NCBI GenBank assembly: GCA_934098295.1
Contig: CAKONV010000006.1
Location: 31,595 to 95,594, forward strand
Reading direction: 5' to 3'
Source of the DNA: an uncultured Bacilli bacterium
GTDB lineage: Bacteria; Bacillota_I; Bacilli_A; ML615J-28; CAG-313
DNA length: 64,000 nucleotides
Below the pieces are notes generated by a model. The model saw nothing but the letters and a program-made list of their open reading frames with translations. It was not told the DNA's origin and searched no databases. How positions within the stretch are numbered: position 1 is the stretch's first letter; the number at the start of each line of letters is the position of its first letter. Made by a program: the position numbers and the translations under genes. Of the stretch, positions 45,270-55,721 are shown piece by piece.

Positions 45270-45344
45270 AGGACCATCGCCAAGCGGTAAGGCAAGTGGC
45301 TCTGACCCACTCATTCGAAGGTTCGAATCCTTCTGGTCCTGCCA
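45270..45344 (+). tRNA. tRNA-Gln (anticodon CUG)
   Basis: It folds into a cloverleaf: acceptor AGGACCA/TGGTCCT, D stem GCC/GGC, anticodon stem AGTGG/CCACT with loop CTCTGAC (anticodon CTG), and T arm GAAGG-TTCGAAT-CCTTC. The CCA end is encoded. Confidence 0.9.
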
Positions 45345-45721: not shown

Positions 45722-45750
45722 TTGACATTTTTTGGATAATAATGTATAAT
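45722..45750 (+). promoter_or_regulatory. Perfect-consensus sigma-A-type promoter
   Basis: It is TTGACA, a 17-nt spacer, then TATAAT, ending 26 nt upstream of the ATG at 45776. Confidence 0.7.
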
Positions 45751-45775
45751 ATTAGTGTACTTAAGTAGGTATAAA

Positions 45776-46191
45776 ATGAAAAAATTTAAAAAATTATTTT
45801 TTTTTATTATTAGTACTTTTACTTTGTACTATTGGAACAATTGATGTTAATGCGGCTAGAATTATTAGAGATGAAGATAATGATTTAGGTGTTGTATTAT
45901 GGTTCTTTAGAAGATGAAAGCTATTATGTAGAAATTAATGAAGAAACAAATGTTGGATATGTTGTATGTTCATTCAATGGTGAAAAAGAAATAGTGGGAA
46001 CATGTACTGTAATTATAATCAATGAAGAAAATTCAAATGGATATGAAGTATGTACAGGACAAAATGATACATTAGGTATTATAACAATTGTCATTACTGA
46101 TGAAATTACTTCTACAGGATATGTTAGTGATGTTACTGACGAATTAATAGGAGTATTTAATGTTAATGAACAAGTATCTTTTGAAGAGTAA
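45776..46191 (+). pseudogene. Possible frameshift-disrupted gene for a small secreted repeat protein (ORF-track piece 45889-46191)
   Basis: The ATG at 45776 opens MKKFKKLFFF and then runs into a T9 tract (45797-45805). The -1 frame continues as a proper signal peptide (LLVLLLCTIGTIDVNA-ARIIRDEDNDLG) and stops at 45916. A third frame (45889-46191) carries three INEExxxGY(V/E) repeats. Confidence 0.35.
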
Positions 46192-46377
46192 TATTAAAAA
46201 ATGTATGTAGGGCGATTTAGAAATCAATTCAATATTGTTAAAGCTATTTATAGGGTGTTTTAATTTAGTAAAATTGTACCTATATAAAGGAAGCATCTTT
46301 AGGCCTTGTGCGTTTAAAGGTGCTTTTTATTTATTTGATTAATGGAAAGGATAAAAAAAATAAAAAAATTTTAGTAA

Positions 46378-46424
46378 GGTGGTTGTTTTTTTGCTTCTCT
46401 TTGCATGTTACCTGGTTGAGGAGC
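46378..46424 (+). promoter_or_regulatory. Repeated promoter/leader module copy 1 (upstream of sigma gene)
   Basis: The sequence is GGTGGTTGTTTTTTTGCTTCTCTTTGCATGTTACCTGGTTGAGGAGC. Here the GAGGAG element can pair with CTCCTCA at 46456-46462, ahead of the real RBS AAGGAGG. Confidence 0.55.
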
Positions 46425-46479
46425 ATAGCAATTAAAATAATAATTAATATCGTCACTCCTCAAAAATAAAGGAGGAGTT

Positions 46480-47244
46480 ATGAATCGTATAATAAAACTT
46501 GTAATAGATTATAAAGAATCACAAGCAGATTTTATATTTCAAGATTTAGTTGATGAATTAACTGACTTAATTGATCACCATAAAAGAAAAGTCGCCGTTT
46601 ATTATAGAGATGATTTGGGACAAGAATTATTAGTATGCCTTGTTAGAGTTATAGATAAATTCAGAATTAAGAATTTTAAGCCAATTAATGAAGAACTATT
46701 TAATTTAAATACGCTTAAATTATTGTTAGAACATAATTACAATAATGTTAATGATGTTTTAAATAATAAATATGTATTAGGTTTTATTGATAAGTATGGT
46801 GCAGATTTATTCAATAAAGCATTTGAAAATTTAAATGATTATAATATTTTTATATTTGAATTTAAACTATTTTGTAATGAAAATCAATTTTTTAAATATT
46901 TAGATAAATCATTAACTAATCAAGTAAATTATTTTGTCAGAAAAAATATAATTAATGATAATAAAATAATAAGTTTAAATACCATTACATCCAGTGATAT
47001 TGAATATATAGATTTAATCCCTGATATAGAAGAAGAAACTAAAATAGTATTTGATATTAATTTACTAGATGAAACTGACAGATCTTTTTTATATAATTTT
47101 ATTAAAGATGATGAAATTATAACTGGAAAAGAAGTTGCTGAAATATTAGGTGTTACACAACAAGCTGTTAGTAGAAGATTAAAAAGGCTTTATAAAAGAT
47201 ATCTGAAAAAATATTATGAAGTATATGAGAAAGTGGAAAAGTAA
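46480..47244 (+). CDS. Sigma-70-family RNA polymerase sigma factor (regions 2 and 4 only; ECF / TcdR-UviA-like architecture)
   Basis: It has a region-2-like segment (YYRDDLGQELLVCLVRVIDKF) and a C-terminal region-4 HTH (ITGKEVAEILGVTQQAVSRRLKRLYKRY). It has a strong RBS. Confidence 0.7.
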   Translation: MNRIIKLVIDYKESQADFIFQDLVDELTDLIDHHKRKVAVYYRDDLGQELLVCLVRVIDKFRIKNFKPINEELFNLNTLKLLLEHNYNNVNDVLNNKYVLGFIDKYGADLFNKAFENLNDYNIFIFEFKLFCNENQFFKYLDKSLTNQVNYFVRKNIINDNKIISLNTITSSDIEYIDLIPDIEEETKIVFDINLLDETDRSFLYNFIKDDEIITGKEVAEILGVTQQAVSRRLKRLYKRYLKKYYEVYEKVEK

Positions 47245-47266
47245 AATTTTTCACTTTTTTTATTTT
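47233..47266 (+). terminator. Terminator overlapping the sigma-gene stop codon
   Basis: The hairpin GTGGAAAA-gtaaaa-TTTTTCAC (one G-U pair) is followed by TTTTTTTATTTTT. Confidence 0.55.
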
Positions 47267-47267
47267 T

Positions 47268-47316
47268 GGTGGTTGTTTTTTTGATACATCTTGTATGTTA
47301 CTAGGGTGTGGAGGTG
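47268..47316 (+). promoter_or_regulatory. Repeated promoter/leader module copy 2
   Basis: The sequence is GGTGGTTGTTTTTTTGATACATCTTGTATGTTACTAGGGTGTGGAGGTG. Its GGAGG serves as the SD for the ATG at 47323. Confidence 0.55.
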
Positions 47317-47322
47317 AAAACA

Positions 47323-47607
47323 ATGGAAAAACTTACAGTTGTAGTTTCTATTATAGGAGTTATAGGAACAATATCAAGTATCTTTTTTGCATACCTTGCA
47401 TGTAGGCGTAATTTAGTAAAAGATGAACATACTGAGGCCAAGAATGAAGGAGCAATTCTATCTGACATTGGTTATATAAAAGCATGTGTAGATCGGGTAG
47501 AAAAGAACCTAAACAAGGTTGATGAAAGATATCGTAATGTTGTTGAAAGACTTGCAAAAGTGGAAGAAGCAGTTGCCAATGTGATTAAAAGAGTTGATGA
47601 ATTATAA
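47323..47607 (+). CDS. Small membrane-anchored coiled-coil protein of the kind found in Firmicute prophage lysis cassettes (BhlA/UviB-like topology)
   Basis: It has one N-terminal TM segment (VVVSIIGVIGTISSIFFAYLA) followed by LSDIGYIKACVDRVEKNL...RLAKVEEAVANVIKRVDEL. The start is moved to the ATG behind GGAGGTG; the ORF-track GTG at 47308 lies inside the module. Confidence 0.55.
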   Translation: MEKLTVVVSIIGVIGTISSIFFAYLACRRNLVKDEHTEAKNEGAILSDIGYIKACVDRVEKNLNKVDERYRNVVERLAKVEEAVANVIKRVDEL

Positions 47608-47629
47608 AAAAATAAAAAAATTTAATTCA

Positions 47630-47676
47630 GATGGTTGTTTTTTTACACATCTTGCATGTTACTAGGGTGAGGAGGT
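47630..47676 (+). promoter_or_regulatory. Repeated promoter/leader module copy 3 (heads the holin-to-immunity operon)
   Basis: The sequence is GATGGTTGTTTTTTTACACATCTTGCATGTTACTAGGGTGAGGAGGT. Its SD precedes an 11-codon mini-ORF. Confidence 0.55.
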
Positions 47677-47682
47677 AAAAAG

Positions 47683-47718
47683 ATGATTAAATATATAAAG
47701 AAGTTAACACCAATTTAA
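47683..47718 (+). CDS. 11-codon leader mini-ORF (MIKYIKKLTPI)
   Basis: Its ATG lies 6 nt after the module-3 GGAGGT and its TAA stop lies 39 nt before the holin ATG. Whether it is translated is unknown. Confidence 0.2.
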   Translation: MIKYIKKLTPI

Positions 47719-47757
47719 GTTAAATACTAGTTAAGTTTTGAAAGGAGGTAAAACAAA

Positions 47758-48048
47758 ATGGATTTTACAAGTGTGCCTATTATAGTCGTATGCTGCTATA
47801 TATTAGGGGAATTATATAAAGCAATATTTAAAAATAAGACAGAAGCATACAAACTAATACCTATTCTAATGGCAATGGTTGGAGGAATATTAGGGATTTT
47901 GATTTATTTAACAAATCCAGAAATGATTTTTAATGTAGATAATATATGGATTGCATTAGGAATTGGTATAGTTAGTGGTACTAGTTCAACTGGTACAAAT
48001 CAAATAATAAAACAAATATTTAAAACAAAAGGAGAAGAAAAAAAATGA
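47758..48048 (+). CDS. Phage-type holin (3 predicted TM segments)
   Basis: It is 96 aa with three hydrophobic helices (PIIVVCCYILGELY, LIPILMAMVGGILGILIYL, IWIALGIGIVSGTSSTG) and a charged tail (KTKGEEKK). It has a strong RBS (GGAGG). Confidence 0.65.
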   Translation: MDFTSVPIIVVCCYILGELYKAIFKNKTEAYKLIPILMAMVGGILGILIYLTNPEMIFNVDNIWIALGIGIVSGTSSTGTNQIIKQIFKTKGEEKK

Positions 48049-48842
48049 ATGAATTTAAAGATAGAATAAGTTCAACGCTTAATCATAAAATTTTAGATGT
48101 TAAAAGTGTTGAAAGAGATGAATCCGGAGAAATTATTTCGATGGAAGTAGAAGTAATCAGAAATGATGAAGAAGGATTAACACAAGAAGGAACACCATTA
48201 AATGCTGAAAGTTTAAATCAAGTAATTAATGAAATGATAGTAACTCAAATTGTTAATTTTATGGATGTTGATCAATCAATTTATATCGATAAAAGGGATC
48301 TAAAATTAAATGAGGAATATAGTGATGATTTTCCGTTAGAAACTACAGGAAAATGTGGTTCAAGTATTACATGGAATGTTGTATCCGGAACAGGAATTGA
48401 AATTGAAGGAAATGTTGCTAAAGTTACACTTCAAAATTATAAGCAAACAGTTGTTTTACGAGCTGTAATTGAAAAAGAAGGTAAAACATTAACAAAAGAT
48501 TTCACTATCGATTTAGTTAATCATTATCAAACAGTAGAAAAAACGTTATCTGTATTTCCTGATGGCTCAAGTGCCATGGTAGCAAGTTTTTATGAAAGTA
48601 TTAATGAAGATGTAGATGTAGTAGTTGAAAATGAATATCCAAATATGATGAGTGTATATTATAAAGTAAATTTAACTGATATGAATGTATATATTAGTAC
48701 AACGGTTGGTAGTGCACCAACTGATGGTGGTGTAACTGAATATGGGTTCGCAGTATTATTAAACTCAAAAGTAACAGGTTTAACTATTAAAAAAGTTAAT
48801 TGTAAGATAAATTTTTTAGATTCAATTACACCAGATGATTAA
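48045..48842 (+). CDS. Phage tail-fibre-like N-terminal motif plus small bacterial Ig-like domain protein
   Basis: The N-terminus (FKDRISSTLNHKIL...QEGTPLNAESLNQ) resembles the conserved start of Firmicute prophage tail-fibre proteins. The middle (SSITWNVVSGTGIEIEGNVAKVTL...VVLRAVIEKEGKTLTKDFTIDLV) resembles the Ig-like segment of the two GH18 lipoproteins. Its start overlaps the holin stop. Confidence 0.45.
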   Translation: MNEFKDRISSTLNHKILDVKSVERDESGEIISMEVEVIRNDEEGLTQEGTPLNAESLNQVINEMIVTQIVNFMDVDQSIYIDKRDLKLNEEYSDDFPLETTGKCGSSITWNVVSGTGIEIEGNVAKVTLQNYKQTVVLRAVIEKEGKTLTKDFTIDLVNHYQTVEKTLSVFPDGSSAMVASFYESINEDVDVVVENEYPNMMSVYYKVNLTDMNVYISTTVGSAPTDGGVTEYGFAVLLNSKVTGLTIKKVNCKINFLDSITPDD

Positions 48843-48861
48843 TAATAGGAGGAATAAAAAT

Positions 48862-50214
48862 ATGAAATTATTAAAATTAAAAAATAAGTTAGAAAAAAAG
48901 AATTTTAAAAAAAGAGAATTAAAAAAAGAATATTTAAACAAAAAAACAAAACAAAATGATAAAGATTTAGTCATTATTGGAGTTACAGGAAGCCGTGGAA
49001 AATCTACAACAGCTTTAATGATGCATGAGTATTTAAAATCAAGGGGCTATAAATCAGTTTTATATTCAAGCGTTATGGTAGATTCACCAGCTAGTCATTA
49101 TAAGAAAAATGAAGCATATGAAGTTGCTGTAAGAGATGAAAAAGCATTATTAAGCATTATTGAAGAAGCAGAAGCATATGGAGCAGAATATTTAGTATTA
49201 GAAGTAAATGAGAGTGCATTAGCAAAAGGTTTCCTAAAAGATGTTCCATTTGATGTAAGAGTACTTACTAATTTAAATCCAAAACATAATTTAGAAGAGT
49301 ATACAGAAGAAGAATATGTTGAATTAAAGAAATCATTTTTCAAAGATATTGAAGAAGAGTGCAAATGTGTATTAGGATTTCAAGATTATGACAAGGAATT
49401 ATTAGATAAATTATTACAATTAAACAAATATCCTAAATATATTGCAGCAAGTAATTACATTGCAAATGTAAAAGGATTAAATGCTAACGAAGTAACTGGG
49501 TTATTAACAGGTCTAGAAACAGATATTGATGGTATGAAATTACAATTTAGATTAAATGGCAAAACATATGAGTTAGATACAAATTTATTGATGTCATATA
49601 ATGCATTAAATGTATTAACAGTTTTAACAACATTAGAAGTATTAGGAGTACTTAATGTATCACAATTTGAAAAAATGCTAAATGGATTAGTTATTCCAGG
49701 CAGAGCAGAAGTATTTAGAGCTAATGGTAGATTAGTAGTAGTCGATACACATTTACCTGCTATGTTAGAATGTTTAAAAACTTTAAAAGATCAAGGAAAA
49801 GTAAATCAAATTAAAGTAGTTGTTGGTTCAATAGGACATGGCTATAAAAATTGGGAAGAAAAATTTAAAACTGAAGAATTTGCATTACAACGTAAAAAGA
49901 TTAGAAAATATGCAATGAACTTATTAAAAGGTGTCGTGGACTATGTTTATTTAACTGAAAGTGATAGCGGAAAGGAAAACCCATTACATATTTGTGAAGA
50001 AATGAAGTCTTATTTAAATGATGAAATTCCATCAACAATTATTGTTGATAGAGAACAAGCAATTAAACATGCAATTATGGAATCACAAGAAGGTGATGTT
50101 GTATTCATTAGTGGTAGAGGTAATAGAAGAGTATTATGCAATAGTGAAACAACTATGAAATTATTAAAAGATAGTGATGTAGTAAAAGAAGTACTAACAG
50201 AATTAGGATGGTAG
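48862..50214 (+). CDS. Mur-ligase-family protein (MurE-like central and C-terminal domains, no domain 1, degenerate catalytic motifs)
   Basis: It has the P-loop IGVTGSRGKSTT. Blocks collinear with MurE are LEVNESAL, TNLNPKHNLEEY, PGRAEVF, VVVDTHLPAML, VVGSIGHG, LTESDSGKENP and ISGRGNRR. The N-terminus is about 45 Lys-rich residues. The start is set at the ATG behind AGGAGG. Confidence 0.65.
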   Translation: MKLLKLKNKLEKKNFKKRELKKEYLNKKTKQNDKDLVIIGVTGSRGKSTTALMMHEYLKSRGYKSVLYSSVMVDSPASHYKKNEAYEVAVRDEKALLSIIEEAEAYGAEYLVLEVNESALAKGFLKDVPFDVRVLTNLNPKHNLEEYTEEEYVELKKSFFKDIEEECKCVLGFQDYDKELLDKLLQLNKYPKYIAASNYIANVKGLNANEVTGLLTGLETDIDGMKLQFRLNGKTYELDTNLLMSYNALNVLTVLTTLEVLGVLNVSQFEKMLNGLVIPGRAEVFRANGRLVVVDTHLPAMLECLKTLKDQGKVNQIKVVVGSIGHGYKNWEEKFKTEEFALQRKKIRKYAMNLLKGVVDYVYLTESDSGKENPLHICEEMKSYLNDEIPSTIIVDREQAIKHAIMESQEGDVVFISGRGNRRVLCNSETTMKLLKDSDVVKEVLTELGW

Positions 50215-50218
50215 TTAT

Positions 50219-53200
50219 ATGGATAATAGTAAAATATTTCATCCTAATCAAGAACATAATTTGGGGAAAGGATTGTTAAGTGTTAATACTTTTAATGGAA
50301 GAATGTTATATAGTTATCCGATTTCTACAATAGGATTAGGAAATTTTCAAATTGATACAAGTTTAGTTTATAATTCATCATATAATATTAGTGATTTTTA
50401 TGATAAAAAAATAGGGTTTGGTAATGGTTGGAAATATAGTTTTGAACAATTTATTTTCAAATATAAAGATGAATATAATTTAGAAGGATTTAATTTATTA
50501 GATTATGTTTATATAGATAGTAATTGGTGTATACATAGATTTATTAAATATAAAGATTGTGAGGGATATGACAATCCAAGAAGTGTATATTATGATGAAA
50601 GTGGTACAGGTTTAAAGTTAATTGTATCTAATAATTCTAATCATCAAATGTTTGATGAATATGGAAATACATATTATTTTGATAAAGATAGTAGTAAATT
50701 AATCAATATAATTTCGGGAGTAAATACTTTGATTATTAAGAATATTGAATATGATGAGGCAAAAGATAAAGTACTTTCAATATATGATTCAAGAAAAAGT
50801 AATAGAAGAATAAAATTTGATTACAATCAAAATAATTTACCTGAAAAATCTTACTCAACACACTCAAATATTTATTACACATTTGAATATGATAATGAAA
50901 AACTAGTAAGAATTTTTAAAGGAAATGATTTAAAGAAAAAGAAAGTACATGAGTTTCTATATGATAAATCATTAATTAATTGTATTATTAATAATGAAAA
51001 TTATCAAGCAATTAAGTTAGAATATAATTTAAATAATAATTATGTACTCAATAAAATAACTTTGGGTGCTATGAAATACAAAGTTATTGCTGAAGATATA
51101 GATGCAGAGTTATATTGTGGTGATGATTTATATTCTAAAGGAACATATTATATAAACCACAAAGGTAAAAAATATATTGAATCAAATTTTATGCCTAATG
51201 AGTATATTTATTCAATAATTACATATGATTATCATTTATCATATACTGAAGAAACAAATAAAAAGGGAATTAAAATGAGATATTATTTTGATATTGATGG
51301 ACATCAAATAAGTAGTTTAGAGTATAATGTTAATAATAATAATTCATTGGAGTTTCATCATTATACTTCATCAAAACCAACAGGATGGGAAATAGGCAAT
51401 AATGGAGATTCAAATTTCTTTATAAATGATAAAAGGGCAAGCATTATATATAAAAATAATAATAAATATTCATTTAGTATCAACAATAGTGATTTATCTT
51501 TATTTAAAAATATTTTCTTAGATGAAACAGAAAAAACTTCTGAACATTTTTCTTTGTCATTTTGGTTAATGTTTAATGATTATAACGATTCAGATCTTCT
51601 TGCAAAAGTGAATTATACCATTATAGATGATAGTACCGGTAGTGATAATGTAAAACAATCTCAAGTTATTATTAAAAATACGTTGGGTGGAACATGGCAA
51701 TATGTTTCAGTACCTTTAAATCTTGAAACAAGTCAAACAACATTAAAAAATATTTCAATAGTATTTGATGCTGATGCTGAAAGTACATTAGAAAATACTC
51801 AATTATTCATTGCGGATATTAGAATCAATAAAGGAAACAAACAAACTATATGTATTGATAACTTAAAATCAGATGACAAATCATATATGGAATTAAAAAT
51901 AGGTGGCAAACTTTATTATTATGATAATTATGAAAGAGAAGTAACATTATCTCCTCAATTTTATATGACAGAGGCAGATATTATTGCGACATACAGAAGT
52001 TTGTATTATAGTATAAAAAATGATGATACTTATTATGAATTATTTTATTGCAATAAAACAAAAATTAAAGCTGTTACATACATCAGTATGTTACCATTTT
52101 ATTTGACTAATGATTTAACGATAAGAAATAATCATAAATATTATACCTTTGATTTTGGGGAATACATAGATGAACATAATAAACAAAATTTAGAAACACC
52201 AAATTATCATTTTAGATATATTGATTTAGTAGCTATTAATGAAAATAAAAAATCTTATAGAGTTACAGAAATTCAAAGAAAAATAAAAGAACGTAAAAAT
52301 GATAGATTTGTTTTTGAAACACATACTTTAATTAATGTTGTTGATGATAATAAATCAATTCAAAGATTGGATGTAAGTAATTCAGTATGTAGTGTAGTAG
52401 AAGAAAATGATGATGGAACTGAAATAAAAAAGAAGTATATAAAGAGATTATATGGTGATGATAATCAAGTTGAGAGGGAAATTTATATAATTAATGAAAA
52501 TGTGTATGATTCATTCGGAAACTTATTAAAAGTAATAACAAAAGCAAATGCTTCAACAAATGAACAATTAGTGAAAGAATATACATATTATGAAAGTAAT
52601 CCAGAGAAAAATGAGTATGTAGATGAAATTAAAGAAAATGGAAATATTGTTAAAACATTATATAATGAAGATGGTAATATTAATAACTTAATTTTTCAAT
52701 ATGATAAAAAATATATTAATGGAATTGTTGAAACAACAAATTTAACTGTAACAAATCGGTTAGAATATTTATATAATGATTTCAATGAACTAATTGGATT
52801 AAATTTTTATGATAGTAATAATAAATTAATTGGTGAAAATAAACTAAATTATAATAAATATGGAACTTTTAATAAACTAAATAATAAAAGTAATGTTAAT
52901 TATGGATTTATTTATAATGCATATGCTGAATTATGTGAAATTTATAGGAATAAGAAGTTGTTACAAAGACAAATTAAAGAATTAACTGATACATATGATA
53001 TATATAAATATTATGTATATCATGGTAATAGTTCATATTCAATAACTGATGTTTATGATGAAGTCAATAGGCTTAAAACTAGTTCTGTAGATGTACTAAA
53101 TAGTAGTATGGTAGAAAATGTTCAAAATATATTATTTGAATATGAAGATAATATGACAAATTTTTCAAGATCATTAGAAAGAATTAAAAAGATTAAGGAT

Positions 53201-55132
53201 TTGTTGACAAATAAAACTTATGTATATGAATATGAAGACAGCATTGAAGATGGAACTACGACTAAAATAATAGAAAATAATGATTACTCTATAACTATTA
53301 AATCTAATGGTGCTAAAATTTATGATATACCAAATGATAAAAAGCAAATTAAATATATATCAGAAATAGAAGATCAGATGAATAATAATCCTAAATATAG
53401 TTACAACTATACTAAATTAAAAAAATCTGATGAGTGGGAAGAAAATATTTATAATTCTTTTGATTATGCATATGATGACTTAGGAAGGTTAATTAGTAAA
53501 AAGTTGAAACCAGATGAATATACAAACGCTACAATATTTATTAATAAAAATATTTCATATTACGAAAATACTTGTCTTCCAAAAGAAATTATATATAATG
53601 TAAATTCAAAATTAAAAAACAATGAAAATACAGAAGTTAATGCAAATTTAATTTATGAAAATTCTTATGTTAAGGGTAATGTAGTGAGGGTATTAGAAAA
53701 TGGAAGTAGATTTATAAAAAATCCTAAAAATATATCTTCACTAGAAAGTACAGCGTTGCAATGTAGAATTACAGATTATGAGTATGATGATAATGATAGA
53801 CTAATTAAAGAAGTAAAATCTGACGGAAGCACATATATGTATACATATGGTGAATTATCAGGTATGATTGAGAAGGTATCAAAAGATACAAAAGATAATA
53901 TAATTAAAATATTAGAGTATAAGTCTGGTCAATTGACAAAAGTAAATGACTATGATATAATCTACGATAATTATGGTAATATAGTTGAATATAATGATAT
54001 ATCAATCAGTTATAATTTTAAAAATTTAATGAAAAAATATGTTAATGCAAATGATACATATTTATTTGAATATAATTATGAAGGAATCAGAACTAAAAAA
54101 CAAAAAAATAATGATTATGAAGTCAATTATTATCTTGATGGAACAAAAATCATTGGAGAAGATGTAATAGATTTAAATTCAAATCAAATTATAAGAAAAT
54201 TTAGATATTATTATGATGCAAATGATATATGTGGTATTAATTATATTATAGATGATGTTGACCATTTCTTTAATTTAGTTAAAGATTCACTTGGAAATAT
54301 TTCTAAGGTAATGTATAGAGGGAAAATAGTTGGTGAATACATTTATGATGCGTGGGGAAATTGCGAAACTAAAATATTTACTGATACAAATCCAAACGAA
54401 ATAGATAATTGCATTGTAAATTATAATCCTTTTAGATTTAAGGGATATTATTGTGATTTAGAAACAAATTTATATTACTGTCAATCCAGATACTATAATC
54501 CTAGAATATATCAATGGTTAAGCCCAGATAGTATAGAATATTTGGATTATGAAAATATTAATGGATTAAATTTATACTGCTATTGTGATAATAATCCAAT
54601 TAATCGCTTAGACTCAACTGGCTATTTTACGTTACTTGCAATAGGAATTTCATTAGGCTTATCATTACTTTTTGAAGTAATTGAAGATGTTAAAAAGGAT
54701 GGTAAATTAGGTGGAGATAAAGATGCGATGGATTATTTAGGTGCTACTATTTCTGGTATATTAGGAGGAATGAGTGGACCAGCTGGAGCATTACTTGGTG
54801 TATTTGGTGATTTAGCAGATGCCGCTATTTCAGGAGATTTAGCTGAAAATGGTTTAGGTGCTACATTACAAGATATTGTATTGTCAAATATAGTATCATT
54901 TGGAGTTGATTTAGGTGTTAAGGGTCTATTTGATGCAAAACAATTTAAGAAATTAACGTCTAACGCTAATGCAAATAAAAAGCTTGTAAAATCTTTAGGT
55001 GGAAGTTATAGTTTTAAAAAGAATGGTAAAACTGCTAAAGCATTTAAAGAAGCTATTAAAGAAACTGAATGGTTTGCAAAAAAATATACATCGCAACTTG
55101 TTTCAGAATTAACTACATTAATTATTTTTTAA
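50219..55132 (+). CDS. RHS / YD-repeat polymorphic toxin, no signal peptide, glycine-zipper C-terminal domain
   Basis: It has an RHS-type N-terminal strand (LSVNTFNGRMLYSYPIS...GFGNGWKYSF) and many YD repeats (FDEYGNTYYF, YDSFGNLLKV, YDDLGRLISK, YDNYGNIVEY, and others). The RHS-associated core is YDAWGN...NPFRFKGYYCDLETNLYYCQSRYYNPRIYQWLSPDS...DNNPINRLDSTGY, followed by a 168-aa variable tail (54626-55129). Confidence 0.9.
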   Translation: MDNSKIFHPNQEHNLGKGLLSVNTFNGRMLYSYPISTIGLGNFQIDTSLVYNSSYNISDFYDKKIGFGNGWKYSFEQFIFKYKDEYNLEGFNLLDYVYIDSNWCIHRFIKYKDCEGYDNPRSVYYDESGTGLKLIVSNNSNHQMFDEYGNTYYFDKDSSKLINIISGVNTLIIKNIEYDEAKDKVLSIYDSRKSNRRIKFDYNQNNLPEKSYSTHSNIYYTFEYDNEKLVRIFKGNDLKKKKVHEFLYDKSLINCIINNENYQAIKLEYNLNNNYVLNKITLGAMKYKVIAEDIDAELYCGDDLYSKGTYYINHKGKKYIESNFMPNEYIYSIITYDYHLSYTEETNKKGIKMRYYFDIDGHQISSLEYNVNNNNSLEFHHYTSSKPTGWEIGNNGDSNFFINDKRASIIYKNNNKYSFSINNSDLSLFKNIFLDETEKTSEHFSLSFWLMFNDYNDSDLLAKVNYTIIDDSTGSDNVKQSQVIIKNTLGGTWQYVSVPLNLETSQTTLKNISIVFDADAESTLENTQLFIADIRINKGNKQTICIDNLKSDDKSYMELKIGGKLYYYDNYEREVTLSPQFYMTEADIIATYRSLYYSIKNDDTYYELFYCNKTKIKAVTYISMLPFYLTNDLTIRNNHKYYTFDFGEYIDEHNKQNLETPNYHFRYIDLVAINENKKSYRVTEIQRKIKERKNDRFVFETHTLINVVDDNKSIQRLDVSNSVCSVVEENDDGTEIKKKYIKRLYGDDNQVEREIYIINENVYDSFGNLLKVITKANASTNEQLVKEYTYYESNPEKNEYVDEIKENGNIVKTLYNEDGNINNLIFQYDKKYINGIVETTNLTVTNRLEYLYNDFNELIGLNFYDSNNKLIGENKLNYNKYGTFNKLNNKSNVNYGFIYNAYAELCEIYRNKKLLQRQIKELTDTYDIYKYYVYHGNSSYSITDVYDEVNRLKTSSVDVLNSSMVENVQNILFEYEDNMTNFSRSLERIKKIKDLLTNKTYVYEYEDSIEDGTTTKIIENNDYSITIKSNGAKIYDIPNDKKQIKYISEIEDQMNNNPKYSYNYTKLKKSDEWEENIYNSFDYAYDDLGRLISKKLKPDEYTNATIFINKNISYYENTCLPKEIIYNVNSKLKNNENTEVNANLIYENSYVKGNVVRVLENGSRFIKNPKNISSLESTALQCRITDYEYDDNDRLIKEVKSDGSTYMYTYGELSGMIEKVSKDTKDNIIKILEYKSGQLTKVNDYDIIYDNYGNIVEYNDISISYNFKNLMKKYVNANDTYLFEYNYEGIRTKKQKNNDYEVNYYLDGTKIIGEDVIDLNSNQIIRKFRYYYDANDICGINYIIDDVDHFFNLVKDSLGNISKVMYRGKIVGEYIYDAWGNCETKIFTDTNPNEIDNCIVNYNPFRFKGYYCDLETNLYYCQSRYYNPRIYQWLSPDSIEYLDYENINGLNLYCYCDNNPINRLDSTGYFTLLAIGISLGLSLLFEVIEDVKKDGKLGGDKDAMDYLGATISGILGGMSGPAGALLGVFGDLADAAISGDLAENGLGATLQDIVLSNIVSFGVDLGVKGLFDAKQFKKLTSNANANKKLVKSLGGSYSFKKNGKTAKAFKEAIKETEWFAKKYTSQLVSELTTLIIF

Positions 55133-55145
55133 AAAAGGAGAAGTT

Positions 55146-55721
55146 ATGAAGTTAACTAAATATGAATATAAACATAATCGATTTGGAAATAGAAAAGTGT
55201 ATAGATTAGGAGCTTATTTTCCTCCAGTGGCAAGAATATTTATGATTGTGATAGTAAATATAGTTACTATTTTAACTATTTTTGACATTGTCTATTCAAA
55301 AAATATTCCTTTAATTAATAATATAATATGCTTATTATTAATAATAATTTTTAGTTTTTTGGTAATAGAATATAATCCATTATTTATTTTTTCAATAATT
55401 ATACGTGGTATATGTTATATATTTTCAAAGAATAATCATCAAAAAAAATTAATTTATAGTTTATTAAGAGATTATAATAATATTATTAATTTTGAAAAAA
55501 AAATGGGCATTACAGATGTGAATATTTCCTTTTTTAATCCATTTAAAATTTATTTTAAAAAAAATGGTAAAAAAGGTAGTATTACTATTAAAATTATAAA
55601 GTGTGGTAAAACTACTGAAAAGAATCAAATGACTGATTACAAAAAGTATAATGACTATATATTTTATTTAAAAACTGAAATCATAAAAGTATACAAAGAA
55701 GATACAACACTTAATAATTAA
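55146..55721 (+). CDS. Polytopic membrane protein, candidate cognate immunity protein
   Basis: It lies immediately downstream of the RHS gene. It is 191 aa with three hydrophobic helices (IFMIVIVNIVTILTIFDIV, IICLLLIIIFSFLVI, LFIFSIIIRGICYIF). No family was recognised. Confidence 0.5.
   Translation: MKLTKYEYKHNRFGNRKVYRLGAYFPPVARIFMIVIVNIVTILTIFDIVYSKNIPLINNIICLLLIIIFSFLVIEYNPLFIFSIIIRGICYIFSKNNHQKKLIYSLLRDYNNIINFEKKMGITDVNISFFNPFKIYFKKNGKKGSITIKIIKCGKTTEKNQMTDYKKYNDYIFYLKTEIIKVYKEDTTLNN

What the first reader, a model, noticed from the sequence alone, without database searches (positions are those of the whole stretch)
46357..47680. Three copies of a 47-49 nt promoter-plus-SD module, one in front of the sigma gene itself
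The three aligned copies are M1 46378-46424 (GGTGGTTGTTTTTTTGCTTCTCTTTGCATGTTACCTGGTTGAGGAGC), M2 47268-47316 (GGTGGTTGTTTTTTTGATACATCTTGTATGTTACTAGGGTGTGGAGGTG) and M3 47630-47676 (GATGGTTGTTTTTTTACACATCTTGCATGTTACTAGGGTGAGGAGGT). There are two conserved blocks: (G/A)TGGTTG plus T7, and CTTG(C/T)ATGTTAC followed by (C/T)(A/T)GG(G/T)TG(A/T)GGAG. They are separated by a short variable stretch, and the block spacing differs by only 1 nt. M1 and M3 also share an upstream AATAAAAAAATTT segment. I did not see the module anywhere else in the window. The bipartite layout with about 17-19 nt between a GGTTG-type element and an ATGTTA-type element fits a -35/-10 promoter for a non-housekeeping sigma factor. 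Its presence before the sigma gene suggests positive autoregulation, as is known for TcdR. Each module carries its own SD. In M2 and M3 the SD is used directly (ATG at 47323 and mini-ORF ATG at 47683). In M1 the GAGGAG can pair with CTCCTCA (46456-46462) ahead of a second, real RBS.
Basis: partly seen in the sequence, partly recalled or inferred. Interest (0 to 1): 0.72.

Follow-up and report, generated by a model that had tools for sequence, protein, structure and literature searches.

The report
Private sigma-factor promoters of a toxin cassette
Three copies of a conserved promoter-plus-ribosome-site module sit in front of a divergent sigma-factor gene, a small membrane protein gene and a holin/Rhs-toxin operon in an uncultured human-gut bacterium. 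They most likely form a self-activating switch for toxin release, similar in logic to TcdR of C. difficile but built from an undescribed sigma family and promoter motif.

Summary
The three modules lie at the stated coordinates. A model built from related modules scores them 48, 38 and 34 bits, and nothing else in the 64 kb exceeds 8.6 bits.

The gene at 46480-47244 encodes a divergent sigma-70-type protein. It heads a conserved cassette: sigma, a 94-aa membrane/coiled-coil protein, a Hol44 holin, accessory genes, an Rhs toxin without a signal peptide, and an immunity gene.

I recovered 14 cassette types from gut metagenomes, with sigma 29-97% identical to the window's. The module recurs in front of the same genes in all of them:
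- GTTG is invariant.
- It lies 17-19 nt from an (A/G)TGTTA block.
- AGGAGG follows 6-8 nt later in most.

The left block stays constant, as does the sigma HTH (TQQAV). The right block changes in step across all copies within the divergent cassettes. Terminators precede M1 and M2.

This supports sigma-specific, autoregulated promoters. The logic matches TcdR, but the protein is not a TcdR-family member. No transcription start data exist, and the genome-wide regulon could not be scanned.

Two further features were found. The sigma leader has a conserved three-part SD / anti-SD / SD arrangement, and an 11-codon upstream ORF (uORF), ending KLTPI-stop in most cassettes, follows M3.

The parts
46288..46328 (+). 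Intrinsic terminator just upstream of M1. It insulates the sigma unit from upstream transcription.
   Evidence: A 17-pair stem followed by a T-run. An equivalent hairpin (AGCATCTA...TAGATGCT) precedes M1 in L001, L004, L062 and L076.
46353..46373 (+). A-tract/T-tract (AAAAAATAAAAAAATTTT) 8-12 nt upstream of GTTG. It resembles an UP element.
   Evidence: Also present before M3 (47607-47624). Similar tracts precede modules in L001, L006, L062, L070 and L076.
46378..46424 (+). Module M1, the putative sigma-dependent promoter of the sigma gene. -35 block GGTTGT 46381-46386; -10 block ATGTTA 46405-46410; SD-like TTGAGGAG 46416-46423; predicted start about 46416-46418.
   Evidence: 38.0 bits with R1. 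Orthologous copies lie before the sigma gene in 13 of the 14 cassette types; none was found in L059.
46416..46477 (+). Sigma leader with three mutually complementary segments: a = SD-like 46416-46423, b = anti-SD CTCCTCAA 46456-46463, c = true RBS AGGAGGAG 46470-46477.
   Evidence: a:b is -12.6 and b:c -11.9 kcal/mol in the window. Both pairings are possible in all 11 distinct leaders, with compensatory changes.
46480..47244 (+). Divergent sigma-70-type factor, 254 aa, the proposed cognate factor.
   Evidence: TIGR02937 E 3.7e-6 (below cutoff), PHROG sigma families, weak Sigma70_r4. Foldseek top hits are almost all sigma factors. Family members pass the Sigma70_r4 gathering score.
47233..47266 (+). 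Weak AU-rich terminator hairpin overlapping the sigma stop codon, plus a T-run, immediately before M2.
   Evidence: Read from the sequence. It is conserved and covaries: GTGGAAA/TTTCCAC, GTGTAAA/TTTACAC, TTCTTAA/TTAAGAA.
47268..47316 (+). Module M2, putative promoter plus SD of the 94-aa gene. GTTG 47272-47275; ATGTTA 47295-47300; SD GGAGGTG 47310-47316.
   Evidence: 34.1 bits. Orthologous copies occur in the 11 cassette types that carry a separate module before this gene.
47323..47607 (+). 94-aa protein with an N-terminal transmembrane helix and a coiled coil (phrog_1863). Lysis-cassette-type accessory protein.
   Evidence: phrog_1863 E 8.4e-15. Sequence. Conserved at this position.
47630..47676 (+). 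Module M3, putative promoter of the uORF-holin-Rhs operon. GTTG 47634-47637; ATGTTA 47656-47661; GTGAGGAGGT 47667-47676.
   Evidence: 48.3 bits. Orthologous copies occur in 9 other cassette types.
47683..47718 (+). Conserved 11-codon upstream ORF (MIKYIKKLTPI-stop) that uses the M3 SD.
   Evidence: Always 11 codons. Six peptide variants: MIKYIKKLTPI (three cassette types), MFKYLEKLTPI, MYKYLNKLTPI (two cassette types), (V)IKLLRKLTPI, MFNYLKKLTPI, MFKYYRKIIPI. Synonymous Leu and Lys codon changes occur.
47758..48048 (+). Holin, Hol44 family.
   Evidence: PF16079 47.9 bits against a cutoff of 29.2; phrog_1129 holin.
48045..55721 (+). Payload with overlapping or abutting genes: aBig_2 protein 48045-48842, Mur-ligase-like 48835-50214, Rhs toxin 50219-55132 (no signal peptide), multi-TM immunity candidate 55146-55721.
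   Evidence: (TIGR03696 66 bits against a cutoff of 32.5). No module and no + strand terminator lies inside.

Best explanation
The three modules are promoters recognised by the sigma-70-type protein encoded at 46480-47244. Each is fused to the first nucleotides of its transcript.

In this model, sigma region 4 reads the invariant GGTTGT block. Its HTH, L-G-[IV]-T-Q-Q-A-V, is invariant across the family. Sigma region 2 reads (C)ATGTTA(C), which lies 16-17 nt further on (hexamer to hexamer).

Transcription would start 5-8 nt after that block, so the RNA begins almost directly with a strong Shine-Dalgarno sequence (GUGAGGAGG).

- **M1** drives the sigma gene itself, giving positive feedback.
- **M2** drives a small membrane/coiled-coil protein.
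- **M3** drives an 11-codon uORF, a holin, accessory enzymes, a signal-less Rhs toxin and its immunity gene.

The result is a self-contained, probably all-or-none switch that couples toxin synthesis to holin-dependent release or lysis.

**Shown:**
- the sequence anatomy;
- conservation of the module, its positions and its spacing in 14 cassette types;
- specificity of the motif to these positions;
- terminators upstream of M1 and M2;
- the sigma-like nature of the protein.

**Inferred:**
- that this protein, and not sigma A, directs initiation;
- the start sites;
- feedback and bistability;
- the release mechanism.

In the sigma leader, the 5' SD-like sequence, an anti-SD and the true RBS can form two exclusive hairpins. 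I infer that this tunes translation or stability of the sigma mRNA.
For: **Anatomy.** There are two conserved blocks, a variable spacer and constant spacing. Across 34 modules the GTTG-to-hexamer distance is 19 nt (17 times), 18 nt (15 times) and 17 nt (2 times).

**Position.** The modules always lie on the coding strand, directly upstream of the sigma, 94-aa and holin genes. M1 and M2 sit immediately after terminator hairpins, so new initiation is needed there.

**Specificity.**
- The regex GTTG-N18-19-[AG]TGTTA hits only module positions in 317 kb of DNA, both strands.
- Model R1 separates modules (14-48 bits) from background (at most 11.5 bits), including in held-out loci.

**Co-evolution.**
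- GTTG is invariant in all 34 modules, and the HTH residues T-Q-Q-A-V are invariant in all 21 sigmas aligned.
- The right block is the same in all copies within a cassette but differs in divergent cassettes: ATGTTTA three times in L069, CGTGTTA twice in L060 and GCAATTGGAATA twice in L070.

**The protein.**
- Weak HMM hits to sigma-70/ECF, SigB/F/G and PHROG sigma families.
- A homologue is named a sigma-70 family factor by NCBI.
- Family members pass the Pfam Sigma70_r4 gathering score.
- 37 of the top 38 Foldseek hits for the full model are sigma factors.
- The N-terminal domain superposes locally on sigma region 2 structures: 9a50 at 1.8 A over 62 columns, 2map at 3.0 A over 61 columns and 2o7g at 2.9 A over 66 columns.

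**Not sigma A promoters.** The sigma-70 consensus scan (at least 9 of 12 matches) listed no hit at the module blocks among the 60 sites it showed (67 weaker ones were not shown). The best manual register gives only 3/6 + 3/6 with a 14-15 nt spacer.

**Precedent.** TcdR, BotR, TetR and UviA are toxin-locus sigma factors with a conserved -35 block and region 4.2, and a variable -10 block and region 2.4 (PMC4031146).
Against: - There are no transcription start or expression data.
- The sigma assignment rests on sub-threshold HMM scores for the window protein. The Foldseek E-values are not significant (best 9.9e-3 for the full model, 0.5 for the N-domain).
- No Sigma70_r2 Pfam hit was found in any member tested.
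- The right-hand third of the module (GTGAGGAGG) could be conserved for translation alone. In L070 M2 the SD lies 22 nt from the -10 block.
- Paralogous copies within a cassette also share spacer sequence. Some of the similarity is therefore recent duplication or gene conversion rather than selection.
- The -10/sigma co-variation rests on only about five independent lineages.
- What first triggers the loop is unknown.
- The regulon outside the cassette is untested. The one genome-collection scan returned only chance hits.
Confidence: 0.75

Rival explanations
1. The modules are sigma A promoters, and the 254-aa protein is a conventional HTH activator or repressor. It would bind the GGTTGT block (class II type) rather than replace sigma.
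For: For the window protein only the C-terminal HTH is clearly detectable by sequence. It hits HTH_24, MarR_2 and AsnC-type models as well as or better than Sigma70_r4. The profile search of PDB sequences finds only HTH proteins. TTG within GTTGTT resembles the start of a sigma A -35.
Against: No acceptable sigma A -10 lies at the right distance. The best register, TTGTTT-N14-15-CATGTT, gives 3/6 + 3/6, and the consensus scan listed no hit at the module blocks. The full-length and N-domain models match sigma factors, including region 2 bound to -10 DNA. TIGR02937 aligns residues 83-242, not just the HTH. The second block co-varies with the protein across cassettes, which a -35-bound activator would not require.
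Confidence: 0.1
2. The module is mainly an RNA-level element, such as a 5' stabiliser, ribosome-loading site or processing site within longer transcripts. The true promoters would lie elsewhere, for example the perfect sigma A promoter at 45722-45750.
For: The module carries a strong SD. In M1 this SD is not used for initiation, as with STAB-SD of cry3A (PMC4113751). In M1 the promoter spacer is complementary to the SD-like region, partly through G-U pairs. That only makes sense if the spacer is sometimes transcribed.
Against: Terminators lie directly upstream of M1 and M2. The left block GTTG and its fixed 17-19 nt distance to the second block have no RNA-structural rationale. The spacer is not conserved in sequence. 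No Rfam family matches at gathering score. The M3 leader has no conserved fold. The spacer/SD complementarity is only modestly stronger in M1 than in M2/M3 (p = 0.028, not corrected for phylogeny).
Confidence: 0.07
3. The repeats are leftovers of cassette assembly, that is, duplication or recombination junctions, with no regulatory role of their own.
For: The cassette is mosaic. The holin is 99% identical between the window and L001 while the sigma is 48% identical. Paralogous modules share spacers. The cassette sits in different chromosomal contexts in different genomes.
Against: The blocks and spacing are conserved between cassettes whose sigma is only 30-50% identical, while the flanks and spacers have diverged. 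Neutral remnants would have decayed. The right block changes in step across all copies within divergent cassettes.
Confidence: 0.04

Closest known systems
TcdR-like group 5 sigma factors (TcdR, BotR, TetR, UviA) and their toxin or bacteriocin loci (the PaLoc pathogenicity locus tcdR-tcdB-tcdE-tcdA; pIP404 uviA-uviB-bcn)
   Same: - A locus-specific alternative sigma factor sits next to a holin-like gene and a large signal-less toxin.
- A copy of the cognate promoter lies before the sigma gene, giving autoregulation.
- The -35 block and region 4.2 are conserved, while the -10 block and region 2.4 vary across the family (PMC4031146).
- The toxins depend on a holin (PMC8878733 and PMC10516005, listed).
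   Different: - The -35 is GGTTGT, not TTTACA.
- Region 4.2 reads TQQAVS, not SRQ.
- There is no BotR NCBIfam hit.
- Profile comparison with a TcdR sequence that I recalled from memory aligns only 34 HTH residues.
- The protein is about 70 aa longer, with an insertion after region 2.2.
- The payload is an Rhs polymorphic toxin with an immunity gene.
- The host is an uncultured gut Bacilli lineage, not Clostridium.
Type 10 secretion / phage-like lysis cassettes that release Tc toxins (which contain an Rhs-type TcC subunit) from specialised Yersinia entomophaga cells
   Same: A holin-based lysis cassette is co-regulated with an Rhs-repeat toxin. Release is by a subpopulation (PMC10847048 and PMC10847046, listed).
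   Different: That system is Gram-negative and includes an endolysin and a spanin, under a different regulator. No endolysin was recognised in the window cassette, and no sigma factor is described in the abstracts listed.
STAB-SD 5' mRNA stabiliser of Bacillus thuringiensis cry3A
   Same: An SD-like sequence lies close to the 5' end of a transcript and is not used for initiation. That is the situation predicted for M1 (PMC4113751).
   Different: Here the SD-like sequence is also complementary to a downstream anti-SD, which can alternatively mask the true RBS. Stabilisation is untested.
Phage and prophage late-gene sigma-like activators upstream of lysis genes (Xpf of PBSX with xhlA-xhlB-xlyA; ArpU/RinA type). 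This comparison rests on my own knowledge.
   Same: A small sigma-like regulator controls a membrane protein plus holin lysis module.
   Different: There are no NCBIfam hits to the Xpf-type (NF005385) or ArpU (TIGR01637) models. No relatives occur in 2.9 million viral contigs. No phage structural genes are nearby.

Membership tests
TcdR-like group 5 sigma factors | Conserved -35 element TTTACA at target promoters | tested here: not met
   All 34 modules have GTTG(T) at this position. The definition is from PMC4031146.
TcdR-like group 5 sigma factors | Ser-Arg-Gln (SRQ) motif in region 4.2 | tested here: not met
   The window protein has GVTQQAVSRRLKR, and T-Q-Q is invariant in 21 homologues. 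The motif is defined in PMC4031146.
TcdR-like group 5 sigma factors | Detectable sequence relationship to TcdR, BotR, TetR or UviA | tested here: not met
   There is no hit to TIGR03209 (BotR). hhalign of A1 against a TcdR sequence recalled from memory aligns only the HTH (34 columns, probability 60%). The recalled sequence itself is unverified.
TcdR-like group 5 sigma factors | -10 element of GTTATA/GTTAAT type | tested here: inconclusive
   ATGTTAC shares the GTTA core with GTTATA. The resemblance is short and could be chance.
TcdR-like group 5 sigma factors | Positive autoregulation and linkage to toxin and holin-like genes | tested here: met
   A module copy precedes the sigma gene in 13 of the 14 cassette types; none was found in L059. 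Holin and Rhs toxin genes lie downstream. Autoregulation is inferred from sequence and has not been measured.
Sigma-70 family | Region 4 HTH (Pfam Sigma70_r4) | tested here: met
   The window protein scores 17.7 bits, below the 24.1 gathering score. Family members P0060, P0143 and P0093 score 36.7, 29.7 and 26.6 bits, above it.
Sigma-70 family | Region 2 domain (core binding, -10 recognition) | tested here: inconclusive
   There is no Sigma70_r2 Pfam hit. TIGR02937 aligns residues 83-242 at E 3.7e-6 but below its cutoff. A DDxxQELLxxLxxVIxKF motif resembles region 2.2 (my own reading). Foldseek gives local matches to sigma region 2 at 1.8-3.0 A over 61-66 columns, with non-significant E-values.
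Sigma-70 family | Binds core RNA polymerase and directs promoter-specific initiation | not testable with these tools
   This needs biochemistry or genetics.
Sigma-dependent bacterial promoter | Two conserved hexamer-size blocks with 16-18 nt spacing, on the coding strand upstream of a gene | tested here: met
   Positions are given.
Sigma-dependent bacterial promoter | Transcription start 5-9 nt downstream of the -10 block | not testable with these tools
   No transcript data are available.
STAB-SD-type 5' stabiliser | SD-like sequence near the mRNA 5' end that is not followed by a start codon | tested here: met
   M1 has TTGAGGAG at 46416-46423, and no start codon follows before the anti-SD. 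The stabilising effect cannot be tested here.
Rhs polymorphic toxin system | RHS repeat-associated core domain followed by a variable C-terminal toxin and an adjacent immunity gene | tested here: met
   TIGR03696 scores 66.1 bits against a cutoff of 32.5, at residues 1376-1468 of the 1637-aa protein. The same species carries a different 1581-aa toxin behind an identical sigma. A multi-TM ORF follows.

The most novel reading that the evidence does not exclude
The cassette may be a new kind of self-contained altruistic toxin-release switch. A private sigma factor would be gated at two further levels that are hard-wired into its promoter modules.

1. **A promoter-coupled translational gate.** Only sigma mRNAs that start at the M1 start site carry a free 5' SD-like segment. 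That segment captures the anti-SD and leaves the true RBS open. Read-through transcripts instead pair the promoter spacer with this segment, and the RBS is masked.
2. **A conserved 11-codon leader peptide (ending KLTPI-stop in most cassettes).** This would time or meter holin and toxin translation.

Together these would give noise-resistant bistability for lysis-dependent export of signal-less Rhs toxins in Gram-positive gut bacteria.
Probability: 0.2. Interest if true: 0.8.

Novelty: new variant of a known kind. Interest (0 to 1): 0.62.

Why it matters
How large signal-less Rhs toxins leave Gram-positive cells, and how their expression is restricted, is largely unstudied. This cassette offers a compact, testable system:
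- one sigma gene;
- a 30-nt promoter motif with clear -35 and -10 blocks;
- a holin;
- a swappable toxin/immunity pair.

It is carried by uncultured human-gut Bacilli.

An exhaustive profile search finds 560 cluster representatives of the sigma family at E up to 1e-3. The family has no curated model in Pfam or NCBIfam. Defining its promoter would allow three things:
- regulon prediction in metagenome-assembled genomes;
- heterologous activation of silent toxin loci;
- an orthogonal sigma/promoter pair for low-GC hosts.

The finding also extends the TcdR paradigm (toxin-locus sigma plus holin) beyond the clostridial toxins.

Tried and rejected
- **Genome-collection scan.** I spent the single genome-contig scan on GTTGTTTTTTN{11,13}RTGTTAN{5,8}GGAG. 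It returned 50 single matches in unrelated taxa. None carries sigma, holin or 94-aa homologues. These are chance hits and the list looks truncated, so the genome-wide regulon test failed.
- **blastn against plasmids and phages.** Searching the locus gave no match.
- **Viral contigs.** The sigma family has no relatives there, so a phage late-gene origin is not supported.
- **Metagenome scan.** It added only three useful loci.
- **Rfam.** Nothing in the cassette reaches gathering score. The 'pan' hit at 46402-46472 scores 24.4 bits against a threshold of 36.2 and is probably chance.
- **PDB sequence searches.** They find only generic HTH proteins.
- **Structured M3 leader coupling the uORF to the holin RBS.** I looked for a conserved fold and found none.
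- **Sigma A promoter reading of the modules.** Rejected on hexamer quality and spacing (and manual reading).
- **An alternative -10 in the (C/T)ATAGT just before GAGGAGG.** Rejected, because the start site would then fall after the conserved SD and no -35 lies at 17 nt.
- **Membership in the TcdR family.** Rejected.
- **The 94-aa protein as XhlA or BhlA.** There is no Pfam support, so I describe it only by architecture.
Full report
**1. The observation**

The three sequences are at the stated coordinates: M1 46378-46424, M2 47268-47316 and M3 47630-47676.
- CTCCTCA lies at 46456-46462.
- The ATGs are at 47323 and 47683.
- The upstream AATAAAAAAATTT segment is shared by M1 and M3.

Exact TGGTTGTTTTTTT and CTTGYATGTTAC each occur only at these three places in 64 kb. 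Matches with two mismatches elsewhere are at chance level.

I built a sequence-only covariance model (R1) from 22 modules of eight cassette types (alignment A2). Run over the window with filters off, it scores the three sites at 48.3, 38.0 and 34.1 bits. The next-best site scores 8.6 bits.

**2. Context**

The module-bearing region heads a compact + strand cassette.
- A strong terminator lies at 46288-46328.
- M1 and a 55-nt leader follow.
- A 254-aa sigma-like gene lies at 46480-47244.
- A weak AU-rich terminator overlaps its stop codon (47233-47266).
- M2 precedes a 94-aa protein with an N-terminal transmembrane helix and a coiled coil (phrog_1863).
- M3 precedes an 11-codon mini-ORF.
- A Hol44-family holin follows (PF16079, 47.9 bits).
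- An aBig_2 protein and a Mur-ligase-like protein follow.
- A 1637-aa protein carries an RHS-associated core (TIGR03696, 66 bits), has no signal peptide and has a glycine-rich, membrane-type C-terminus.
- A multi-TM immunity candidate ends the payload.

No further module and no + strand terminator occurs from M3 to about 58005.

The cassette has 24% G+C against 28% for the window. It lies just downstream of tRNA-Gln at 45270-45344.

The host is an uncultured human-gut lineage.
- The identical sigma occurs in many gut metagenome assemblies.
- The nearest SmpB outside the species is 70% identical.
- The only named relatives are 'Bacilli bacterium' MAGs.

**3. Comparative test**

The sigma protein has few close relatives (29 in the word-indexed search). 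An exhaustive profile search, however, finds 560 50%-identity cluster representatives at E up to 1e-3, and 68 at E up to 1e-30.

I fetched DNA for 14 cassette types, with sigma 29-97% identical to the window's.

Gene order is conserved: sigma, then the 94-aa protein (sometimes absent), then holin, a small protein, a Mur ligase or Pol-beta nucleotidyltransferases, an Rhs toxin and an immunity gene. The chromosomal neighbours differ in every lineage, so the cassette behaves as an island.

The module recurs before the same genes in all of these cassettes. Across 34 modules:
- GTTG is invariant.
- The distance to the second block is 19 nt (17 times), 18 nt (15 times) or 17 nt (twice).
- The spacer sequence is free.
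- AGGAG follows the second block after 6-8 nt in most.

L058 M2/M3 have GTTGTATTTATT, and L060 has GTTGTTATTTG.

A plain regex, GTTG-N18-19-[AG]TGTTA, hits nothing but modules in 317 kb on both strands.

Three loci that were not used to build R1 give an out-of-sample test.

| Locus | Module scores (bits) |
|---|---|
| L076 | 47.2, 36.8, 45.3 |
| L078 | 34.3, 20.4, 28.1 |
| L077 | 25.8, 14.5 |

The hits fall upstream of the sigma, 94-aa and holin genes in L076 and L078, and upstream of the first two in L077. Background in these loci is at most 11.5 bits.

**4. Why a sigma-specific promoter**

(a) *Geometry.* Taking hexamers GTTGTT and ATGTTA, the spacer is 16-17 nt. An A-tract/T-tract resembling an UP element lies 8-12 nt upstream.

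(b) *Terminators.* Terminator hairpins lie immediately upstream of M1 and between the sigma stop codon and M2. The latter covaries across cassettes: GTGGAAA/TTTCCAC, GTGTAAA/TTTACAC and TTCTTAA/TTAAGAA. Each unit therefore needs its own initiation.

(c) *Not sigma A promoters.* The consensus scan listed no hit at the module blocks. The best manual register gives 3/6 + 3/6 with a 14-15 nt spacer.

(d) *Co-evolution.* The left block is invariant, and so is the recognition helix of the C-terminal HTH (L-G-[IV]-T-Q-Q-A-V). The right block is identical among the two or three copies within a cassette, but it shifts in the more divergent cassettes:
- ATGTTTA in all three L069 modules;
- CGTGTTA in both L060 modules;
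- GCAATTGGAATA in both L070 modules, at the same 19-nt distance.

The segment I read as region 2.4 (KSLTNQVNYFVRK in the window) is variable in the family. Conserved -35 with region 4.2, and variable -10 with region 2.4, is the pattern described for the TcdR group (PMC4031146).

(e) *The protein.*
- It gives weak hits to TIGR02937 sigma-70/ECF (E 3.7e-6, residues 83-242, below cutoff), to SigB/F/G and to PHROG sigma families.
- A homologue is annotated by NCBI as a sigma-70 family factor.
- Three of ten family members tested pass the Pfam gathering score for Sigma70_r4.
- An AlphaFold model (pLDDT 82) has sigma factors as 37 of its first 38 Foldseek hits in the PDB. The best is S. aureus SigB in an open complex (probability 0.96, E 9.9e-3).
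- The N-terminal 160 residues were modelled alone (pLDDT 94.7). They superpose locally on B. subtilis SigB (1.8 A over 62 columns), on E. coli sigma E region 2 bound to -10 DNA (3.0 A over 61 columns) and on M. tuberculosis SigC region 2 (2.9 A over 66 columns). The E-values are not significant.
- A motif DDLGQELLVCLVRVIDKF matches the shape of region 2.2. It is followed by an insertion of about 55 residues (my reading).

I put the sigma assignment at about 0.8-0.85.

**5. Predicted transcripts**

With a start 5-8 nt after ATGTTA, the RNAs begin at about 46416-46418, 47306-47308 and 47667-47669. That is essentially at GUGAGGAGG, so the Shine-Dalgarno sequence sits at the very 5' end.
- In M2 it serves the 94-aa gene, with the ATG 7 nt after GGAGGTG.
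- In M3 it serves the mini-ORF.
- In M1 no start codon follows.

In Bacillus, an SD-like sequence or a bound ribosome near the 5' end protects mRNA from RNase J1 (STAB-SD; PMC4113751). This is a plausible common rationale for fusing an SD to the promoter, but it is an inference.

**6. The sigma leader**

Examples with compensatory changes are:

| Locus | SD-like / anti-SD |
|---|---|
| Window | UUGAGGAG / CUCCUCAA |
| L001 | GUGAGGAG / CUCCUCAC |
| L069 | GCGAGAGG / CUUCUCGU |
| L070 | AAGGAGAA / UUCUCCUU |
| L060 | AGGAGUA / UACUCCU |

The same anti-SD can also pair with the true RBS. In 11 distinct leaders:
- The a:b duplex is -9.3 to -17.8 kcal/mol.
- The b:c duplex is -9.2 to -16.8 kcal/mol.
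- The leader truncated before c folds a:b in 10 of the 11, with a related a:b-type stem in L006.
- The full leader has a:b as its minimum free energy (MFE) fold in 3 of 11 and b:c in 8 of 11. The window is in the second group (-14.2 kcal/mol, z -1.9).

This looks like a two-state leader rather than a simple mask.

In addition, if RNA began upstream of M1, the promoter spacer could pair with the SD-like region:
- window: UGCUUCUC / GAGGAGCA;
- L001: AACUUA / UAAGUU;
- L069: UUACCU / AGGUAA;
- L071: 15 bp.

The complementarity is stronger in M1 (mean -9.7 kcal/mol) than in M2/M3 (mean -6.2). The Mann-Whitney p is 0.028 and is not corrected for phylogeny. I treat this as a lead only.

**7. The mini-ORF**

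The mini-ORF after M3 is always 11 codons. Six peptide variants were seen:
- MIKYIKKLTPI (three cassette types);
- MFKYLEKLTPI;
- MYKYLNKLTPI (two cassette types);
- (V)IKLLRKLTPI;
- MFNYLKKLTPI;
- MFKYYRKIIPI.

There are synonymous Leu (TTA/CTT/CTA) and Lys changes, and both TAA and TAG stops. This argues for translation. No conserved RNA fold links it to the holin RBS. Its role is open: it could serve ribosome loading or stability, act as a stalling peptide, or be a micropeptide.

**8. Comparison with known systems**

The closest analogue in logic is the TcdR/UviA/BotR/TetR group with its holin-like partners. Membership in that group fails on four counts:
- The -35 is GGTTGT, not TTTACA.
- There is no SRQ motif.
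- There is no BotR-model hit.
- Only the HTH aligns with a TcdR sequence that I recalled from memory.

There are no relatives in viral contigs, phage genomes or plasmids. Literature searches for Rhs plus holin plus sigma or TcdR found nothing describing this cassette.

The nearest payload analogue is the lysis-cassette release of Rhs-containing Tc toxins by specialised Yersinia cells (PMC10847048).

I file the finding as a new variant of a known kind.

**9. Limits**

- There are no transcript data.
- The regulon outside the cassette is unknown.
- Sigma region 2 is supported by structure prediction only.
- The co-variation rests on few lineages.
- The trigger of the loop is unknown.

Noticed in passing
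window 47683-47718; also L004, L006, L058, L062, L069, L076 and L078 downstream of M3: A conserved 11-codon upstream ORF, M-[IFY]-[KN]-[YL]-[ILY]-x-K-[LI]-[TI]-P-I-stop, uses the M3 Shine-Dalgarno. It shows synonymous codon changes, and no conserved RNA fold links it to the holin RBS.
   Followed up: partly
window 46416-46477 (sigma leader): The anti-SD CTCCTCAA can pair either with the module's SD-like TTGAGGAG or with the true RBS AGGAGGAG. Both options are conserved in 11 leaders, which suggests a two-state translational or stability switch.
   Followed up: partly
window 46386-46424; M1 of L001, L062, L069, L070 and L071: The M1 promoter spacer is complementary to the SD-like region just downstream of the -10 block, partly through G-U pairs. 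This would matter only in read-through RNA. It is modestly stronger than in M2/M3 (p = 0.028).
   Followed up: partly
window 45270-45344: tRNA-Gln(CTG) lies about 1 kb upstream of the cassette. Homologous cassettes sit in unrelated chromosomal contexts, and the cassette G+C is 24% against 28% for the window. This is island-like behaviour, but no integrase was seen.
   Followed up: partly
window 45722-46191: A perfect sigma A-type promoter (TTGACA-17-TATAAT, 45722-45750) precedes an ATG at 45778. The ATG is followed by a signal-peptide-like stretch that is broken by frame changes before the 100-aa ORF at 45889-46191. This may be a pseudogene. It ends at the terminator that insulates M1.
   Followed up: no
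window 47600-48250 compared with L001 9150-9790 and L076 6130-6790: The cassette is mosaic. The M3-uORF-holin block is almost identical (holin 99%) between lineages whose sigma proteins are only 48-49% identical. This suggests recombination at or near the modules.
   Followed up: partly
window 50219-55721 compared with L064/L065 4837-9952: Within the same species, and behind an identical sigma, different strains carry different Rhs toxins (1637 aa against 1581 aa) and different downstream small ORFs. This is polymorphic toxin/immunity swapping.
   Followed up: no
window 48835-50214; L006, L058 and L062: A MurE-like ligase, or in other cassettes one or two Pol-beta-type nucleotidyltransferases, always sits between the holin and the Rhs gene. 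Its role is unknown. No endolysin was recognised in the cassette.
   Followed up: no
window 47233-47266: The 5' half of the terminator stem after the sigma gene is formed by the last sigma codons (V-E-K-stop). It covaries with its 3' half across cassettes. Its T-run doubles as the A/T-rich upstream region of M2.
   Followed up: partly
L076 2407-2442: A weak extra hit of the module model (11.5 bits, E 0.008) lies upstream of a TRAM/tRNA-U5 methyltransferase gene. It is probably chance.
   Followed up: no
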